From a virus (taxonomy: Duplodnaviria > Caudoviricetes): a DNA stretch of 64,000 bases. Below are positions 14,804 through 23,319 of this stretch, in pieces. How positions within the stretch are numbered: the stretch's first letter is position 1; each line of letters begins with the position of its first letter. The notes beneath the pieces are model-generated. The model did not search any database and was not told the origin of the DNA. It saw only the letters and a program-made list of their open reading frames with translations. Both the position numbers and the translations under genes were made by a program. The stretch is from the IMG/VR virus record IMGVR_UViG_3300028603_000002, positions 64,001 to 128,000 of that record; one strand, 5' to 3'.

Positions 14804-15517
14804 ATGGAAAAACTGAGAATATTATATAAAGATGCTTTTTATCAAAATCTCCTTAAAGAAGGAGTATATGATCCCGCAATATTCAAGGCAATATTTATGG
14901 CAGGGGGGCCTGGTTCGGGAAAATCATATATTGCAAAAAAAGTAACAGGGGGATTAGGGTACAAATTCATAAGTTCAGATATTGCTTTTGAACATTTCTT
15001 AAATAAATTAAAGATGTCTCATAAATTGGATAAATTATCTGATGAGGAATTCAATAAAGTAATACGAACTAGAAATAGGGCAAAGGAACTAACTAAGAAA
15101 ATAAAAGCTTCTCATGAAGGTGGGAGATTAGGATTGATATTTGATGGTACAGGGTATGACTATTTAAAGATAAAAAAATTGAGGGATGAAATTACTAAGT
15201 ACGGATATGATACATATATGATTTTTGTGAATACTTCTTTGGATGTAGCATTAGAAAGAAATCAAAAGAGATCAAGAACTGTACCTGAAGACGTAGTGAT
15301 AGGAAAATGGAAAGCAGTGCAAGAAAATATTGGTAAATTTCAAAATTTATTTGGATCTAATTTTACTGTTATTGATAACAATACACCAGATGTTGAAGAA
15401 ACACTTGATTTAGAACGAAAGCAAGTCATGAAATTTACTAAAGCACCCATAAAAAATCCAATTGCGAAACAGTGGATTGATAGAGAATTAGAATTAAAAA
15501 ATAGATTAAGTAAATAA
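14804..15517 (+). CDS. P-loop kinase (AAA_33/zeta-like)
   Basis: AGGPGSGKS, LIFDGTG and FVNTSLDVALERN..R.R motifs. Confidence 0.8.
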   Translation: MEKLRILYKDAFYQNLLKEGVYDPAIFKAIFMAGGPGSGKSYIAKKVTGGLGYKFISSDIAFEHFLNKLKMSHKLDKLSDEEFNKVIRTRNRAKELTKKIKASHEGGRLGLIFDGTGYDYLKIKKLRDEITKYGYDTYMIFVNTSLDVALERNQKRSRTVPEDVVIGKWKAVQENIGKFQNLFGSNFTVIDNNTPDVEETLDLERKQVMKFTKAPIKNPIAKQWIDRELELKNRLSK

Positions 15518-17034: not shown

Positions 17035-17406
17035 GGGCCATACAGGAATCGACAGGTATAAGAAGTATATTAGGCGATCCGCACAATGATATTAACGTGC
17101 GTCAAAAAGGTATATCAACACAGAGTTGACAAAAATGTCAGTTTAGATTTGGCACTAGAAGCATTGAAAAATGATACTAGCGGCGGCCGTGCTATTAACA
17201 TGGTTACCAAGCCAGCAGCTTTCGCGGTAGCTGCGTAAACCAAACCGTTCTTCCTGAGCTTTCTACCATGTGTAGGTAGCCAACAATGGTTTTTCTTATT
17301 GTACCCATTAAACAATAAGATGGTGGAGTTGCAGGGTTAGTTTATGATCGTTATTCCTAGTATATGTATTATGTTCTGGATGTGGGTTCGAATCCCACAT
17401 GGTCCA
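17035..17406 (+). ncRNA. ssrA: tmRNA
   Basis: 5' GGGCCATACAGGAATCGAC. 3' T arm plus ATGGTCC-A gives G3:U70 and A73. Internal frame ends ...PAAFAVAA-stop at 17238. Confidence 0.9.
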
Positions 17407-17480
17407 CTTCAAACATGGAATGGGTCACCTCTAGAGCAGGTGTTGCAATGGGGGTGGCTTTATTAAAAACAAGGAAAGAT

Positions 17481-18912: not shown

Positions 18913-19083
18913 CAAATAAAAAAATTTAGGATGAGGATGTGGTGAGTATAAGCTCCTAATGTGTAATAAGGAAGAAGTACAAAGAAAAAGGGATTGTAGT
19001 ATTTGTATGAAACAGCCGACACACATGAGAATCCCTGACGCCATTATGGCTAGACCCGTAACCACATCCTTTATTTTAATTAT

Positions 19084-19180
19084 GGAAGAGTAACGCCGTC
19101 AGACTGTAAATCTGATCCGCTTTAACAAATTGGCGTAGTTGGACTTCGCGGTAAGTCGGGTTCGAGTCCCACCTCTTCCA
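19084..19180 (+). tRNA. tRNA-Tyr(GTA)-like, no D arm, giant variable arm
   Basis: GGAAGAG/CTCTTCC-A acceptor and TCAGA-CTGTAAA-TCTGA. Only 8 nt between the acceptor and anticodon stems. Confidence 0.7.
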
Positions 19181-19189
19181 CTTATATAT

Positions 19190-19262
19190 GGCAACTGAGC
19201 AAGTGAGGTCATTGTGCTGGTCTGAAAAACCAGAGAATCCGGATCGTTACCGGGAGTTGCCG
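19190..19262 (+). tRNA. tRNA-Phe(GAA)
   Basis: CTGGT-CTGAAAA-ACCAG. Atypical T loop ATCGTTA. Confidence 0.8.
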
Positions 19263-19275
19263 CAAAATTAAATAC

Positions 19276-19347
19276 GCCTCCATAGTGTAATTGATAGCAT
19301 ATGAGCTTCCAAACCTCAAGGTCCGAGTTTGAATCTTGGTGGGGGTG
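19276..19347 (+). tRNA. tRNA-Trp(CCA)
   Basis: TGAG(C)-TTCCAAA-(C)CTCA, G73. Confidence 0.75.
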
Positions 19348-19370
19348 CTAATATAAGTTTTATTTTTTAC

Positions 19371-19444
19371 GGTGTTGCAGCATATTGGTGCATGTTACCC
19401 GCCTGTCACGCGGGGGATTGTGGATTCGAATTCCATCAACACCG
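19371..19444 (+). tRNA. tRNA-Asp(GTC)
   Basis: CCCGC-CTGTCAC-GCGGG, G73. Confidence 0.9.
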
Positions 19445-19450
19445 CGATCA

Positions 19451-19524
19451 GCGGGTTACGCATAAGTGATGGTGCACCTGCCTTCCAAGCAGGAAAAGAG
19501 CCAGTTTGATCCTGGCAACCCGCA
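19451..19524 (+). tRNA. tRNA-Gly(TCC)
   Basis: CCTGC-CTTCCAA-GCAGG. Confidence 0.85.
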
Positions 19525-19528
19525 CAAA

Positions 19529-19602
19529 AAATAGAAACATAACACATGTTACTTTATGAATCGTTTATTTCAACCAAACTACATGTGTTGATTATTCTAT
19601 TT
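19529..19602 (+). ncRNA. stem motif copy C
   Basis: AAATAGAA-ACAT-AACACATGT-TACT...ACATGTGTT-GATTA-TTCTATTT. Confidence 0.7.
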
Positions 19603-19611
19603 ATTTTTAAT

Positions 19612-19684
19612 GGGGGTATAGTTTAACTGGCTAAAATCAGTGATTTGCACTCACTAGATCCGATTTCGATCATCGGTACCTCCA
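19612..19684 (+). tRNA. tRNA-Ala(TGC)
   Basis: AGTGA-TTTGCAC-TCACT, G3:U70. Confidence 0.85.
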
Positions 19685-19692
19685 CAAACTTT

Positions 19693-19835
19693 TGCGTGGT
19701 AGTTGAATTGGAATATTATTCGTCCGACGGTAGTATTTTGAAATGAATGACGATTCATTAAGTTTAATACCTTAGAATAATAACAACACTCCCGGCTAGA
19801 GGGAGAGATTGCAGGTTCGACTCCTGTCCACGCAA
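19693..19835 (+). tRNA. tRNA-like RNA with CTA anticodon and 69-nt D-loop insertion
   Basis: TGCGTGG/CCACGCA acceptor, D stem GTTG/CAAC, CTCCC-GGCTAGA-GGGAG, canonical T arm. Confidence 0.65.
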
Positions 19836-19858
19836 CTATTAACAGGTAACTACTAGAT

Positions 19859-19930
19859 GGCCCGTTCATCTAATGGCTAGGATACGCGACTTTCTATCGC
19901 ACAATGAGGGTTCGATTCCCTCACGGGCTG
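19859..19930 (+). tRNA. tRNA-Glu(TTC)
   Basis: GGCCCGT acceptor, GCGA-CTTTCTA-TCGC. Confidence 0.8.
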
Positions 19931-19940
19931 CAATAAAAAA

Positions 19941-20014
19941 GAACAGGTACTCAATATTGGCTTTGAGATAGGTCTGCAAAACCTAGAATGTGGGTTCGAT
20001 TCCCACCTTGTTCT
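19941..20014 (+). tRNA. tRNA-Cys(GCA)
   Basis: TAGGT-CTGCAAA-ACCTA, U73. Confidence 0.9.
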
Positions 20015-20021
20015 CAAATTC

Positions 20022-20095
20022 GCCTCTGATGCTCGTATGGTAGAGCACCGGACTTTTAATCCGGGTATAGCTCAGTTCGAATCTGGCCAGGGGCA
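20022..20095 (+). tRNA. tRNA-Lys(TTT)
   Basis: CCGGA-CTTTTAA-TCCGG. Confidence 0.85.
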
Positions 20096-20111
20096 CTAAA
20101 AACATTTTAAT

Positions 20112-20477
20112 ATGAAAACAGGATTTTATAATCTATCAACACTTTCTTTAGAAGAACTAAAGTCTTTTTATAAAGATACAATTCCTCTTTCATATTGTAT
20201 CATGTGTGAATCAAAATACACCACATATAAAAATAAATGGAGATCTGTAGATAATAAATACAATATCAATGATTATATTGAGAGAGTAAATCATGCTAAC
20301 CACAATGTTTGTATAGATAGATCAATTCAAGGAGCTAACCTCCCAGGAACTGAAAGAGGAGAGATTGGATTCAAATTACATGAAACATATGATAGAGACT
20401 GGCATCAAATAACATTCTATACTACATTAGAAAACTTTTATAAATTAGTTGACAAATTTAAACTAAAAGAATTATGA
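20112..20477 (+). CDS. hypothetical protein
   Basis: 121-aa ORF coupled to the next gene (ATGA overlap). Confidence 0.6.
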   Translation: MKTGFYNLSTLSLEELKSFYKDTIPLSYCIMCESKYTTYKNKWRSVDNKYNINDYIERVNHANHNVCIDRSIQGANLPGTERGEIGFKLHETYDRDWHQITFYTTLENFYKLVDKFKLKEL

Positions 20478-21169
20478 GATGTTTAGCAGTTGGTGATATA
20501 CACGGCAATTATGATGCATTAATGGATGTATTAGAAAAATGTAATTATGATCCTAATAATGATATGTTAATTGCAATGGGCGATTATACTGATAGAGGAC
20601 CTAAAAACATTGCAGTAGTAGAATTTTTATTATCAATTGGTCATTTTATTGGATTACTTGGAAACCATGATGTTTGGGTAAGAGAATATCTAAATGGAAA
20701 TTATAGTGGAATAGATTGGATATTGAATGGTGGAAAAGTAACATATGATGAATATGAAAAAGCAAAGAAACTTGGTTCATTTGATATTGGTCTACATAAA
20801 GAATTCTTTAATAGTTTACATGAATATTATGTCTTAGAATTGAATGGTAAGAAGTATGGATTCGTCCATGGTGGATTTTATTCGTGGGATGGATTAGGAC
20901 ATGATGATACAGTAAAATATACTTGGTGCAGAGAGTTGTGGGAAGATGTATTTAATGGGCGGAATGAATCAGTAAAAAATCAGTTATCACATTATGATAC
21001 ATTATTTATAGGACATTGCCCGACAAATTTATATGGTGTTAAACCAGATAAACTTCCAGTTAAATATGCAAATGTTATTAACCTAGACCAAGGTATTGCT
21101 TATGAAAATGGAAGATTAACAATATGTGATATAGAAACTGAACAATGTTGGCAATCCAGTAAAAAGTAA
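20474..21169 (+). CDS. metallophosphoesterase (Ser/Thr protein phosphatase-like)
   Basis: GDIHG, GDYTDRG, GNHD, FVHGG and GHCP motifs. Confidence 0.9.
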   Translation: MRCLAVGDIHGNYDALMDVLEKCNYDPNNDMLIAMGDYTDRGPKNIAVVEFLLSIGHFIGLLGNHDVWVREYLNGNYSGIDWILNGGKVTYDEYEKAKKLGSFDIGLHKEFFNSLHEYYVLELNGKKYGFVHGGFYSWDGLGHDDTVKYTWCRELWEDVFNGRNESVKNQLSHYDTLFIGHCPTNLYGVKPDKLPVKYANVINLDQGIAYENGRLTICDIETEQCWQSSKK

Positions 21170-21173
21170 AGTC

Positions 21174-21452
21174 ATGACTTGGAATTTCAGATTAATGCTT
21201 ACAAAACACCAACATCCAACAGGTGATCCTGATAATTCTTATACTATAGGAATACATGAAGTGTATTATGATGAAGATGGGTCACCTAACGGATACCATG
21301 AAAATCCTAGAGAGATGTCGGCAGAAGATATTAAAGGTATGGAATGGTTACTCGATGCTCTTCATGGTGCATTTGATAAACCAGTATTGTGGAATAGTGA
21401 TAGATTTCCAGAAGAAGTATCTAAAGAAGATTTAAAAGCCCTTGTAGCTTAG
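21174..21452 (+). CDS. conserved phage hypothetical protein
   Basis: WNFR...IHEVYYDEDG motif. Confidence 0.6.
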   Translation: MTWNFRLMLTKHQHPTGDPDNSYTIGIHEVYYDEDGSPNGYHENPREMSAEDIKGMEWLLDALHGAFDKPVLWNSDRFPEEVSKEDLKALVA

Positions 21453-21513
21453 CCTGGTTTAAAGCGCGTATTTTACATGTACGAGATCATTGGTTCGAAT
21501 CCAGTTGAGGGCA
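21438..21513 (+). tRNA. tRNA-Val(TAC)
   Basis: CGTAT-TTTACAT-GTACG. Overlaps the upstream stop codon. Confidence 0.85.
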
Positions 21514-21603
21514 CTAGAAAAATATATGAAAAATATTTCAAGAAATATTTGGTTAATTGGAAAACATTACTTATCTTTATTATGAAATAAAAGAGTATAA
21601 GTT

Positions 21604-22050
21604 ATGAAAACCGAACAATTAAACGTTCTTCAATTAGTTAGAAAATTCGATAATGGAGATTTTGACAATCCAAGTTTTGAAACTCAATGTGATGCTGGAT
21701 GGTATGATTGGTTTTGTAAACAGACTAGTTTAGCAGGCAAGACTAGAACATTATATAGAAAGGTTAAACAGTTATTGAAAACGAAGAGAATTCAAGAATT
21801 GAACCTTGAAAAAACATATGTGTGGTTCAAAAATAATTGTCCAATGAATGGTAGTTTATATGATGATATCCGATTTGCGGATATTGAGACAGGGCAGGTT
21901 TTATTTACTATAGTACCCAAATGCGGACATAGAATAAGTGAAGGGGAAAGGGCACAAATACATGGCAACCGTTTAAACCCAGATGATGAGTTTATAATGG
22001 ATGTGTACAAAGGTGATTGGAAAGGAGTATTAGAATTTCTTAATAAATAG
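21604..22050 (+). CDS. conserved phage hypothetical protein
   Basis: GWYDWFC and YVWFKNNCP...LYDD motifs. Own promoter at 21548. Confidence 0.65.
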   Translation: MKTEQLNVLQLVRKFDNGDFDNPSFETQCDAGWYDWFCKQTSLAGKTRTLYRKVKQLLKTKRIQELNLEKTYVWFKNNCPMNGSLYDDIRFADIETGQVLFTIVPKCGHRISEGERAQIHGNRLNPDDEFIMDVYKGDWKGVLEFLNK

Positions 22051-22110
22051 TTAACCCATATCAAATCTTCCATCAGGTAACAGCGTATAAGTGGAGACTA
22101 AGGGTTATTA

Positions 22111-22192
22111 AGGCGTATACCAGCCCATCCTGATAAGATGGAGAACTGTAGCAGGTAAGTTGAAAACATGGGTTCGAATCCCATTACGCCTA
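22111..22192 (+). tRNA. tRNA-Ile(GAT)-like, no D arm, long variable arm
   Basis: AGGCGTA/TACGCCT-A acceptor and CCATC-CTGATAA-GATGG. Only 7 nt in place of the D arm. Confidence 0.7.
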
Positions 22193-22472: not shown

Positions 22473-22559
22473 GTGTACGAATCGGATATGGTTTGCCGAG
22501 TCAGGTTGTGACCCTGGTGTGATGAAAGTCACGTGCGAGTTCGAATCTCGTCGTACACC
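22473..22559 (+). tRNA. tRNA-His(GTG) with long variable arm
   Basis: TCAGG-TTGTGAC-CCTGG, C73, extra arm GTGA-TGAAAG-TCAC. Confidence 0.8.
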
Positions 22560-22734: not shown

Positions 22735-23319
22735 ATGAGAATAATATTCGATATTCATGGAAAGATGCATCGGTATAAACAATTAACAACTGATGTCAAA
22801 AAGAGTGTACAAATAGGTGATTTAGGATTTAAAAGTCAACATGAATGGTTTTTAGCTAATATGGATTGTGATAATCATAAAGTATTATTTGGTAACCATG
22901 ATTATTATCCATATATAAATCTAAAACATTCGTTGGGTGATTTTGCTTTCTATGAAGGAATATTCTTTATACGTGGTGCTGCTTCAATTGATAAAGCATA
23001 TAGAGTTGCTTATAGAGATTGGTTCCCAGAAGAAGAATTGAATTTTAGACAAATGACTGAATGTTTCAATCTTTATAGTGAAATTAAACCAAAGATTGTA
23101 GTTAGTCATGATTGCCCACAAGCTGTATGCAAAGAATTATTCGGGCATCCAGGTTCTCACACAAGAAATTTTTTACAATTATTATTTGAAGAACATCAAC
23201 CTGATATGTGGTTATTTGGCCACCACCATCAAAATGTAGAATTGGTTCTTGATAATACTTATTTTAAATGTGGTGAAGAATTAGAATATTATGATATATC
23301 AGAAAATTTATTAAAATGA
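22735..23319 (+). CDS. metallophosphoesterase
   Basis: DIHG, GDLG, GNHD, GAASID, SHDCP and FGHHH motifs. Confidence 0.85.
   Translation: MRIIFDIHGKMHRYKQLTTDVKKSVQIGDLGFKSQHEWFLANMDCDNHKVLFGNHDYYPYINLKHSLGDFAFYEGIFFIRGAASIDKAYRVAYRDWFPEEELNFRQMTECFNLYSEIKPKIVVSHDCPQAVCKELFGHPGSHTRNFLQLLFEEHQPDMWLFGHHHQNVELVLDNTYFKCGEELEYYDISENLLK

What the first reader, a model, noticed from the sequence alone, without database searches (positions are those of the whole stretch)
19084..22192. Two D-armless tRNAs whose D remnant can pair with the loop of an enlarged variable arm
Seen: tRNA-Tyr (19084-19180) and tRNA-Ile (22111-22192) have good acceptor, anticodon and T arms but only 7-8 nt in place of the D arm. 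In Tyr, ACGCC complements GGCGT in the variable-arm loop AAATTGGCGTA. In Ile, TACCAGC complements GCAGGTA (one mismatch) in the loop of AACT-GTAGCAGGTA-AGTT. Both loops contain a D-loop-like GG. They are the only Tyr and Ile(GAT) genes in this cluster. Inference: a shared re-wired tRNA topology in which the variable arm supplies the D-stem partner. Standard tRNA finders may miss or mislabel it.
Basis: partly seen in the sequence, partly recalled or inferred. Interest (0 to 1): 0.78.

Follow-up and report, generated by a model that had tools for sequence, protein, structure and literature searches.

The report
Two phage tRNAs with rewired D-arm
This 172-kb phage's only tyrosine tRNA gene and its only isoleucine (GAU) tRNA gene have no D hairpin; one strand of that helix sits before the anticodon arm and the other strand plus a D-loop-like GG sits after it, a conserved layout that I found in no paper and that the tRNA finder I ran (ARAGORN) misses.

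Summary
ARAGORN misses both. Rfam's tRNA model aligns them with the D arm deleted (Tyr 26.1 bits, below threshold; Ile 36.9 bits).

- **Tyr:** Across 21 distinct phage homologs, helix H1 (19093-19098 with 19131-19136) is 97.6% paired, with five pair types at one position. A second helix, H2 (19117-19120 with 19148-19151), also covaries and crosses H1, which makes a pseudoknot.
- **Ile:** The concept is right but the register is wrong. The proposed TACCAGC/GCAGGTA pairing scores no better than shuffled partners. The conserved helix is 22121-22123 with 22146-22148. It sits just before AGCAGGTA, which reads as a D-loop. The Ile fold is nested, not knotted.
- **Function:** The whole genome has no cloverleaf Tyr or Ile(GAU) tRNA gene and no TyrRS or IleRS. 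With these two genes the phage's tRNA set covers all 20 amino acids.

I read both as working tRNAs with a rewired D-arm. Expression and charging are untested. An unannotated Tyr homolog sits in the cultured Bacteroides phage crAss001.

I found no published description. Earlier notes of this scan report the same tRNA class on other DNA.

The parts
19084..19180 (+). Rewired tRNA-Tyr(GUA) gene, 97 nt. Acceptor 19084-19090 / 19173-19179, discriminator A 19180.
   Evidence: Rfam RF00005 hit at 26.1 bits with the D arm deleted. ARAGORN silent. 21-sequence alignment A1 is 97.9% paired overall.
19093..19098 (+). Tyr H1, 5' strand ACGCCG. It follows T8-A9 (19091-19092) and abuts the anticodon stem, so it plays the role of D-stem positions 22-25/26.
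   Evidence: Pairs with 19131-19136. 97.6% paired. Pair 12-51 is GC14/AU7; pair 13-50 is GU10/CG5/GC2/UA2/UG2. RNAalifold predicts the helix independently. It is in the single-sequence MFE.
19099..19115 (+). Tyr anticodon arm. Anticodon GTA at 19106-19108.
   Evidence: 5 bp, 98.1% paired, 4 of 5 pairs with compensatory changes.
19117..19120 (+). Tyr H2, 5' strand CCGC (stem of the class II variable arm).
   Evidence: Pairs with 19148-19151. 98.8% paired. Pair 35-67 is UA16/CG5; pair 36-66 is GC14/CG7. It crosses H1, which makes a pseudoknot.
19121..19130 (+). Tyr conserved single-stranded linker TTTAACAAAT.
   Evidence: AAAT is invariant in 21 sequences, including those found with a pattern that did not specify it.
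19131..19136 (+). Tyr H1, 3' strand TGGCGT (role of D-stem positions 10-13).
19137..19147 (+). Tyr D-loop-like segment AGTTGGACTTC.
   Evidence: A, then TGG, then T at position 62 are invariant in alignment A1.
19148..19151 (+). Tyr H2, 3' strand GCGG.
19155..19172 (+). Tyr T arm. Loop TTCGAGT. One bulged C (19157) in the 5' strand, unique to this copy.
22111..22192 (+). Rewired tRNA-Ile(GAU) gene, 82 nt. Acceptor 22111-22117 / 22185-22191, discriminator A 22192, T8-A9 at 22118-22119.
   Evidence: Rfam RF00005 hit at 36.9 bits with the D arm deleted and 23 nt inserted. ARAGORN silent.
22120..22123 (+). Ile H1, 5' strand CCAG (roles 22-25). C 22124 plays the role of position 26.
   Evidence: G22123-C22146, A22122-T22147, C22121-G22148, C22120.T22149. 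Rule-based parse of 30 sequences gives 90/120 cells paired against a shuffled 50.3 +/- 5.2, 0/5000. On alignment A4 pair 12-37 is AU5/CG4/GC2.
22125..22141 (+). Ile anticodon arm. Anticodon GAT at 22132-22134.
   Evidence: 100% paired, and all 5 pairs show compensatory changes.
22146..22149 (+). Ile H1, 3' strand CTGT (roles 10-13), after a 4-nt linker AGAA (22142-22145).
22150..22157 (+). Ile D-loop-like segment AGCAGGTA (A14, G15, C16, A17, G18, G19, T20, A21 by analogy).
Evidence: TA-N(2-4)-GG is present in all homologs.
22158..22167 (+). Ile connector AGTTGAAAAC leading to the T stem.
   Evidence: GTTGAAAAY recurs in the GAT, TAT, CAT and TCT members.
22168..22184 (+). Ile T arm ATGGG-TTCGAAT-CCCAT.

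Best explanation
Both genes encode working elongator tRNAs (Tyr-GUA reading UAY, Ile-GAU reading AUY) whose D-arm is rewired rather than lost. After U8-A9 comes a 4-6 nt strand that runs directly into the anticodon stem. Its partner lies 3' of the anticodon arm and is followed immediately by a D-loop-like A-N(1-3)-G-G. The resulting helix H1 lengthens the anticodon stem, as a normal D-stem does by stacking on it. The GG is placed to dock on the unchanged T-loop, so an L-shape could be kept with different chain connectivity. In the class II Tyr tRNA the variable-arm stem (H2) is kept and closes around the relocated strand and loop, giving a pseudoknot. In the class I Ile tRNA there is no H2 and the fold is nested. 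Host TyrRS and IleRS must charge them, because the phage encodes neither enzyme. Shown here: H1 and H2 by covariation, the absence of cloverleaf copies, and the conserved motifs. Inferred: the 3D docking, charging and decoding. Speculative (about 0.3): the selective advantage is resistance to host tRNA-targeting nucleases, such as Septu and retron-Eco7 PtuAB, which cut the variable arm of tRNA-Tyr.
For: Tyr:
- H1 is 97.6% paired and H2 is 98.8% paired over 21 distinct sequences, and each helix has two pairs with compensatory changes.
- The covariation score is 0.724 against 0.208 in shuffles (0/500 as high) and 0.11-0.18 when the partner is slid by 1-3 columns.
- RNAalifold recovers H1 on its own.

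Ile:
- A parse anchored only on the TA-N(2-4)-GG motif and on the anticodon stem gives 53/68 paired cells against 30.4 +/- 4.2 in shuffles (0/5000).
- The same rule applied to 30 sequences (GAT, TAT and CAT anticodons, plus one TTA hit that looks like a false positive) gives 90/120 against 50.3 +/- 5.2 (0/5000).
- In that set pair 24-11 is CG10/AT10/GC8/TA1 and pair 25-10 is CG7/GC9/AT5/TA2/GT2.
- The tool count on the gapless alignment A4 agrees.

Function:
- The whole genome has 22 ARAGORN tRNAs plus an Rfam-only tRNA-Gly. None is Tyr or Ile(GAT), so only these two genes complete the set of 20 amino acids.
- Both keep A73 and their anticodons, which are the major Tyr (A73, U35) and Ile (discriminator, anticodon) identity elements (PMC9976931).
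- The phage has no TyrRS or IleRS.
- In most fetched loci that carry a rewired copy, no cloverleaf copy was found: 17 of 21 for Tyr and 13 of 14 for Ile.
- crAss001 and cr112_1 annotate no tRNA-Tyr in the stretches I viewed, and they hold the homolog in the unannotated Lys-Phe gap.

Rationale: Septu and retron-Eco7 cut the tRNA-Tyr variable arm, and T5 tRNA-Tyr escapes through a different variable loop (PMC13096335).
Against:
- The window's Tyr copy is the most divergent member: it has a bulged C in the T-stem and two further 1-nt insertions relative to all the others.
- A cloverleaf copy lies next to the rewired one in some phages (Tyr in L165, L168, L179 and L181; Ile in L060), so the rewired form may have a role beyond simple replacement.
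- Several conserved motifs were partly fixed by my search patterns (anticodon loop, T-loop, and the linker).
- No nucleotide that would act as a Levitt-pair partner is apparent by eye.
- GG docking on the T-loop is inferred from conservation only.
- The nuclease-evasion idea has no direct support here, and the host is unknown.
Confidence: 0.78

Rival explanations
1. Mitochondrial-style D-armless tRNAs. H1 only lengthens the anticodon stem, as in human mt-tRNA-Ser(GCU). The GG segment does not dock on the T-loop, and the molecule is a flexible Y or boomerang shape without a tertiary core.
For: [quoted passage not shown] H1 is formally the same kind of extension. Bacterial translation machinery tolerates a D-armless tRNA. 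In Tyr only 5 nt link the GG back to H2, which is tight for reaching the elbow.
Against: A canonical TTCGA T-loop is kept. An invariant A plus (T)GG follows H1 at D-loop-like spacing in both families, and T8-A9 is invariant. mt-tRNA-Ser(GCU) has lost all of these features.
Confidence: 0.12
2. One reading: TACCAGC pairs with GCAGGTA inside the loop of an AACT/AGTT variable hairpin.
For: It is present in the sequence, and it is the single-sequence MFE and centroid fold (-22.8 kcal/mol, z = -2.3).
Against: In 17 homologs 59/119 cells pair, equal to the shuffled mean of 59.3 (3106/5000 shuffles as high), and there is no compensatory pattern. C36 and T37 of AACT belong to the covarying helix.
Confidence: 0.04
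3. tRNA-like RNAs that are not decoders: decoys for tRNA-targeting nucleases, or regulators or primers that mimic tRNA-Tyr and tRNA-Ile.
For: They coexist with an adjacent cloverleaf copy in some phages. A decoy role has been discussed for phage tRNA-Tyr against Septu (PMC13096335).
Against: In this genome they are the only Tyr and Ile(GAU) genes in an otherwise complete set. The acceptor, discriminator, anticodon loop and T arm are all kept as charging and decoding need.
Confidence: 0.05
4. Decaying pseudogenes that lost their D arms.
For: They are missed or under-scored by tRNA finders. This Tyr copy has a T-stem bulge.
Against: The same layout recurs in dozens of distinct phage contigs with compensatory changes in every helix. 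That pattern is the signature of purifying selection on structure.
Confidence: 0.01

Closest known systems
Canonical bacterial and phage tRNA-Tyr (class II) and tRNA-Ile(GAU) (class I), Rfam RF00005 cloverleaf
   Same: 7-bp acceptor stem, A73, 5-bp anticodon stem with a 7-nt loop, U33 and purine 37, a TTCGA T arm, U8-A9, a 3-6 bp helix next to the anticodon stem, an A...GG loop motif, and for Tyr a variable-arm stem.
   Different: There is no D hairpin. The two D-stem strands lie on opposite sides of the anticodon arm, so the chain connectivity changes (9 to 22, 43 to 10, 21 to 49 in standard numbering). Tyr becomes a pseudoknot. ARAGORN misses both genes, and Rfam scores Tyr below its threshold.
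D-armless mitochondrial tRNA-Ser(GCU/AGY) (PMC9427863)
   Same: No D hairpin. The D-replacement nucleotides pair to extend the anticodon stem.
   Different: The mitochondrial form has a remodelled T-loop, no GG element and no tertiary core, and it needs co-evolved mitochondrial partners. The phage forms keep a canonical T-loop and a D-loop-like GG, and must use ordinary bacterial synthetases.
allo-tRNAs and 8/4 or 9/3 tRNAs of bacteria and phages (PMC5389517)
   Same: Non-standard tRNA architectures found in bacteria and phages by metagenome mining.
   Different: Those change the acceptor and T-stem lengths but keep a four-arm cloverleaf with a D hairpin. Here the stems have standard lengths, but the D-arm topology is changed.
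Circularly permuted tRNA genes of Cyanidioschyzon merolae (from my own knowledge, not checked here)
   Same: tRNA segments are encoded in a non-standard order.
   Different: There the 3' half precedes the 5' half, and processing restores a normal cloverleaf. Here the acceptor ends are already terminal, and no cut-and-join can restore a hairpin D arm.
Phage T5 tRNA-Tyr that resists retron-Eco7/Septu (PMC11555353, PMC13096335)
   Same: A phage-encoded tRNA-Tyr with an altered variable region, in the setting of nucleases that cut the tRNA-Tyr variable arm.
   Different: T5 tRNA-Tyr is a normal cloverleaf with a different variable loop. Resistance of the rewired form is untested.

Membership tests
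tRNA (Rfam RF00005 cloverleaf) | Score at or above the curated gathering threshold (29 bits) | tested here: inconclusive
   Ile scores 36.9 bits (met). Tyr scores 26.1 bits (not met)..
tRNA (Rfam RF00005 cloverleaf) | Acceptor stem, anticodon arm and T arm of standard size | tested here: met
   The Tyr T-stem has one bulge.
tRNA (Rfam RF00005 cloverleaf) | Hairpin D arm between positions 9 and 26 | tested here: not met
   Only 4-6 nt lie there, and the model's 15 D-arm positions are deleted in both alignments.
tRNA (functional adaptor) | Aminoacylation and use on the ribosome | not testable with these tools
Only indirect evidence exists: sole copies in a 20-amino-acid set and identity elements kept.
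Class II tRNA (long variable arm) | Base-paired variable arm between the anticodon and T stems | tested here: met
   For Tyr, H2 is 4 bp, 98.8% paired, with two covarying pairs. It does not apply to Ile.
H-type pseudoknot | Two crossing helices, each supported comparatively | tested here: met
   For Tyr, H1 (10-15/48-53) crosses H2 (34-37/65-68). For Ile this is not met; the fold is nested.
D-armless mitochondrial-type tRNA | D-replacement nucleotides extend the anticodon stem | tested here: met
   H1 abuts the anticodon stem (Tyr) or is separated from it by 1 nt (Ile)..
D-armless mitochondrial-type tRNA | Loss of the D-loop/T-loop tertiary core (no GG, remodelled T-loop) | tested here: not met
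   TTCGA T-loop and A...GG are kept in all members. Actual docking was not tested.
Permuted tRNA gene | 3' half encoded upstream of the 5' half, with acceptor ends internal | tested here: not met
   The acceptor strands are at the gene termini.

The most novel reading that the evidence does not exclude
Rewired-D-arm tRNAs are a phage-specific class of non-cloverleaf adaptors. They occur as Tyr, Ile-GAU, Ile-UAU, CAU and Arg-UCU forms, with a knotted class II version and a nested class I version. They evolved because the changed connectivity and the buried variable arm make them poor substrates for host tRNA-cleaving defence nucleases, while host synthetases, EF-Tu and ribosomes still accept them. 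On this reading tRNA fold topology itself is an immune-evasion trait.
Probability: 0.25. Interest if true: 0.92.

Novelty: new variant of a known kind. Interest (0 to 1): 0.8.

Why it matters
A recent paper states that all known bacterial tRNAs are cloverleaves (PMC11551756), and the only natural D-armless tRNAs I know of are mitochondrial.

- **A new tRNA fold.** These genes would be natural tRNAs that use ordinary bacterial translation machinery yet have a different secondary-structure topology, including a pseudoknot.
- **Annotation.** Phage tRNA repertoires, crAss001's included, are under-annotated, so codon-usage and tRNA-complement analyses of phages miss Tyr and Ile.
- **Structure.** It offers a natural test of how much of the tRNA core is connectivity and how much is shape.
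- **Defence.** It gives a concrete hypothesis for the phage-host conflict over tRNA cleavage.
- **Engineering.** It offers a scaffold for orthogonal tRNAs.
- **Testability.** A homolog sits in a cultured phage-host pair (crAss001 and Bacteroides intestinalis), so experiments can start at once.

Tried and rejected
- **Full-length MAFFT alignments of Ile (A2, A3):** they mis-register the relocated strand. I used a rule-based parse and a gapless 11-sequence alignment instead.
- **In-silico permutation:** moving the relocated block back between A9 and the remnant makes ARAGORN, 17 Ile and 18/21 Tyr, against 0 in native order. A reversed-block control is also called (9/17 and 18/21), so the test is not specific and I do not count it.
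- **Prokaryote genomes:** a scan of 185,579 species genomes with a rewired-Tyr pattern gave 5 hits, all chance matches in non-tRNA sequence. That pattern has so far been found only in phage contigs.
- **Near relatives of this Tyr copy:** a 17-mer search gave chance hits only.
- **Cultured phages with the Ile gene:** blastn against 50,697 phage records found no match.
- **Stop-codon recoding as context for a nearby CTA-anticodon tRNA-like gene:** not supported. The one ORF with five in-frame TAGs has them all upstream of its real start.
- **tRNA-repair context:** no RNA ligase or CCA-adding enzyme in the genome (the Rnl1 control was uninformative).
- **Levitt-type 15-48 covariation in Tyr:** no pattern by eye.
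- **crAss-like identity of the phage:** rejected. It has a tail sheath and a T4-type PolB.


Full report
**Setting.** The window is bases 64001-128000 of a complete 171,908-bp virus record with direct terminal repeats. The genome has 31.7% G+C. It encodes a large terminase, portal, major head protein, tail sheath and a PolB whose best match is 40% identical (Microcystis phage Mel-JY01). It is therefore a distant T4-like myovirus, not a crAss-like phage.

All of its tRNA genes lie in one island at window 16.2-24.2 kb. ARAGORN finds 22 of them. Rfam adds a tmRNA (17035-17409) and a tRNA-Gly(TCC) (19451-19524). None is Tyr or Ile(GAT).

**Observation.** The Tyr gene (19084-19180) scores 26.1 bits, below the gathering score of 29. 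The Ile gene (22111-22192) scores 36.9 bits. In both alignments the 15 D-arm positions are replaced by 4-5 nt, and 37 nt (Tyr) or 23 nt (Ile) are inserted at the variable region. ARAGORN calls neither. The acceptor stems, discriminator A, anticodon arms (GTA, GAT) and TTCGA T arms are standard, apart from one bulged C in the Tyr T-stem.

**Tyr homologs.**
- blastn found the odd Tyr gene in 31 crAss-like Bacteroides phage records, including the cultured crAss001. It always lies in an unannotated gap between tRNA-Lys and tRNA-Phe, and neither crAss001 nor cr112_1 annotates a tRNA-Tyr in the stretches I viewed.
- Two pattern scans of IMG/VR added contigs of about 29-390 kb.
- This gave 21 distinct sequences, which align almost without gaps (alignment A1).

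**Tyr structure.**
- On A1, helix H1 (gene positions 10-15 with 48-53; window 19093-19098 with 19131-19136) is 97.6% paired. Pair 12-51 is GC14/AU7, and pair 13-50 has five pair types.
- Helix H2 (34-37 with 65-68; window 19117-19120 with 19148-19151) is 98.8% paired. Pair 35-67 is UA16/CG5 and pair 36-66 is GC14/CG7.
- The covariation score for the whole structure is 0.724. Shuffled partners give 0.208 (0/500 as high), and slid partners give 0.11-0.18.
- RNAalifold predicts H1 independently, and H1 is in the single-sequence MFE.
- H1 and H2 cross, so the Tyr RNA is a pseudoknot.
- T8, A9, AAAT before H1's 3' strand, GTA at its end, and TGG three to four nt later are invariant.

**Ile homologs.** blastn against phage records found nothing. 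A pattern requiring a long gap between the GAT anticodon loop and the T-loop found many D-armless Ile genes in IMG/VR. MAFFT mis-registers their variable regions. I therefore parsed each sequence by a rule that does not use pairing. The 3' strand is the 4 nt ending at the T of the TA-N(2-4)-GG motif. The 5' strand is the 4 nt before the single nucleotide that precedes the anticodon stem.

**Ile structure.**
- For 17 sequences this gives 53/68 paired cells against 30.4 +/- 4.2 in shuffles (0/5000).
- The same rule applied blind to all fetched loci gives 30 distinct sequences (21 GAT, 5 TAT, 3 CAT and 1 likely false hit). Of 120 cells, 90 are paired, against 50.3 +/- 5.2 in shuffles (0/5000).
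- In that set pair 24-11 is CG10/AT10/GC8/TA1, pair 25-10 is CG7/GC9/AT5/TA2/GT2, and pair 23-12 is CG23/AT5/GC1. Pair 22-13 is usually a mismatch.
- The tool count on a gapless 11-sequence alignment agrees.
- In the window the pairs are G22123-C22146, A22122-T22147 and C22121-G22148, plus C22120.T22149.
GCAGGTA is part of AGCAGGTA, the D-loop-like segment that follows the helix.
- I see no second covarying helix in Ile, so its fold is nested.

**Interpretation.** In both genes the strand after T8-A9 runs straight into the anticodon stem, as positions 22-26 of a normal tRNA do. The relocated strand is followed by A...GG, as positions 10-13 are followed by A14 and G18-G19. The parts of a D arm are all present, but the hairpin is opened and its 5' half is moved behind the anticodon arm.

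From the known tRNA fold (my own knowledge), U8 lies next to the 13-22 end of the D-stem, position 43/44 lies next to the 10-25 end, and position 21 lies near 48. These new connections are therefore sterically plausible, and an L-shape with GG docked on the T-loop could be kept. This 3D picture is inference, not a result.

**Function.**
- With these two genes the phage's tRNA set covers all 20 amino acids. Without them it lacks Tyr and has no GAU-anticodon Ile tRNA; the specificities of its two CAT tRNAs were not examined.
- The phage has no TyrRS or IleRS, so host enzymes must charge them.
- A73 and the anticodons, the major identity elements, are kept (PMC9976931).
- In most fetched loci that carry a rewired copy, no cloverleaf copy was found. 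In a few phages a cloverleaf copy lies next to the rewired one.
- E. coli machinery accepts an artificial D-armless tRNA (PMC11551756).
- I therefore read both as working tRNAs (confidence about 0.78). Expression and charging are untested.

**Why rewire?** This part is speculative. Septu and retron-Eco7 PtuAB cut the variable arm of tRNA-Tyr, and T5 tRNA-Tyr escapes through a different variable loop (PMC13096335; PMC11555353). A buried, knotted variable arm could serve the same end. The tRNA island also holds an AAA_33-type kinase and two calcineurin-like phosphoesterases. No RNA ligase was found, so a repair system is not shown.

**Comparison and novelty.**
- The nearest natural analogue is D-armless mt-tRNA-Ser(GCU), whose D-replacement loop also extends the anticodon stem. 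That tRNA has no GG, a remodelled T-loop and no tertiary core (PMC9427863).
- allo-tRNAs keep a D hairpin (PMC5389517).
- Seven literature searches and a 2020 review of non-canonical tRNAs gave no description of this layout.
- A scan of 185,579 prokaryote genomes with a rewired-Tyr pattern returned only chance hits.
- Earlier notes of this scan report the same class (Tyr, Ile-UAU, Arg-UCU) on other DNA. I re-derived the Tyr case independently. I also saw TAT, CAT and TCT members in my own loci.

**What this window adds.** Two rewired species, one knotted and one nested, sit in one genome, each as the sole gene for its anticodon. The window also supplies a corrected Ile pairing.

Noticed in passing
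window 19694-19835 (+): A tRNA-like gene missed by ARAGORN and Rfam. It has acceptor TGCGTGG/CCACGCA, a D stem GTTG/CAAC enclosing a two-hairpin insertion of about 78 nt, an anticodon-like loop GGCTAGA (CTA, but with G at position 33), and a normal T arm. The fold z-score is -3.1. TAG recoding of phage genes is not supported. Earlier notes on this genome mention a five-copy RNA motif and a TROVE-like protein in this island, so a Y-RNA-like RNA with a tRNA-like module is one possibility.
   Followed up: partly
window 22473-22559 (+): tRNA-His(GTG) is 87 nt long and has a 4-bp long variable arm (GTGA/TCAC), which is unusual for a class I tRNA. G-1:C73 is present.
   Followed up: partly
window 17035-17409 (+): Phage-encoded tmRNA (Rfam RF00023, 54.4 bits, full length) inside the tRNA island.
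   Followed up: no
window 19451-19524 (+): tRNA-Gly(TCC), found by Rfam (44.7 bits) but not by ARAGORN. It has a 3-bp D stem and T-loop TTTGATC.
   Followed up: no
window 14804-15517, 20474-21169, 22735-23319 (+): An AAA_33/Zeta-toxin-like P-loop kinase lies at the edge of the tRNA island, and two calcineurin-like phosphoesterases lie inside it (one matches NinI-like and RNA-ligase-associated PHROGs). They could be RNA end-healing enzymes, but the genome has no RNA ligase or CCA-adding enzyme.
   Followed up: partly
L204:5808, L109:5210, L065:8578, L105 (- strand), L137 (- strand), L138:8726, L117 (- strand), L122:5905: The same rewired scaffold (TA, 4-nt strand, anticodon arm, linker, partner strand, A..GG, GTTGAAAAY, T arm) carries anticodons TAT (Ile-AUA), CAT and TCT (Arg) in other IMG/VR phages. 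Several phages hold two or three rewired genes.
   Followed up: partly
L165:4774-4856, L168:412-494, L060:8009-8086: A cloverleaf tRNA-Tyr or tRNA-Ile(GAT) lies within about 10 nt of the rewired gene of the same anticodon. The two are not close in sequence, so this is not a recent duplication.
   Followed up: partly
L169:821-928 (- strand), L186:652-758 (- strand): tRNA-Tyr genes with a normal D arm but a variable region of about 40 nt, far longer than usual for class II.
   Followed up: no
window 18928-19075 (+): A 148-nt non-coding stretch just upstream of the Tyr gene. It is closed by an 11-bp long-range stem (GAGGATGTGGT/ACCACATCCTT); fold z-score -2.6. It matches no Rfam family.
   Followed up: no
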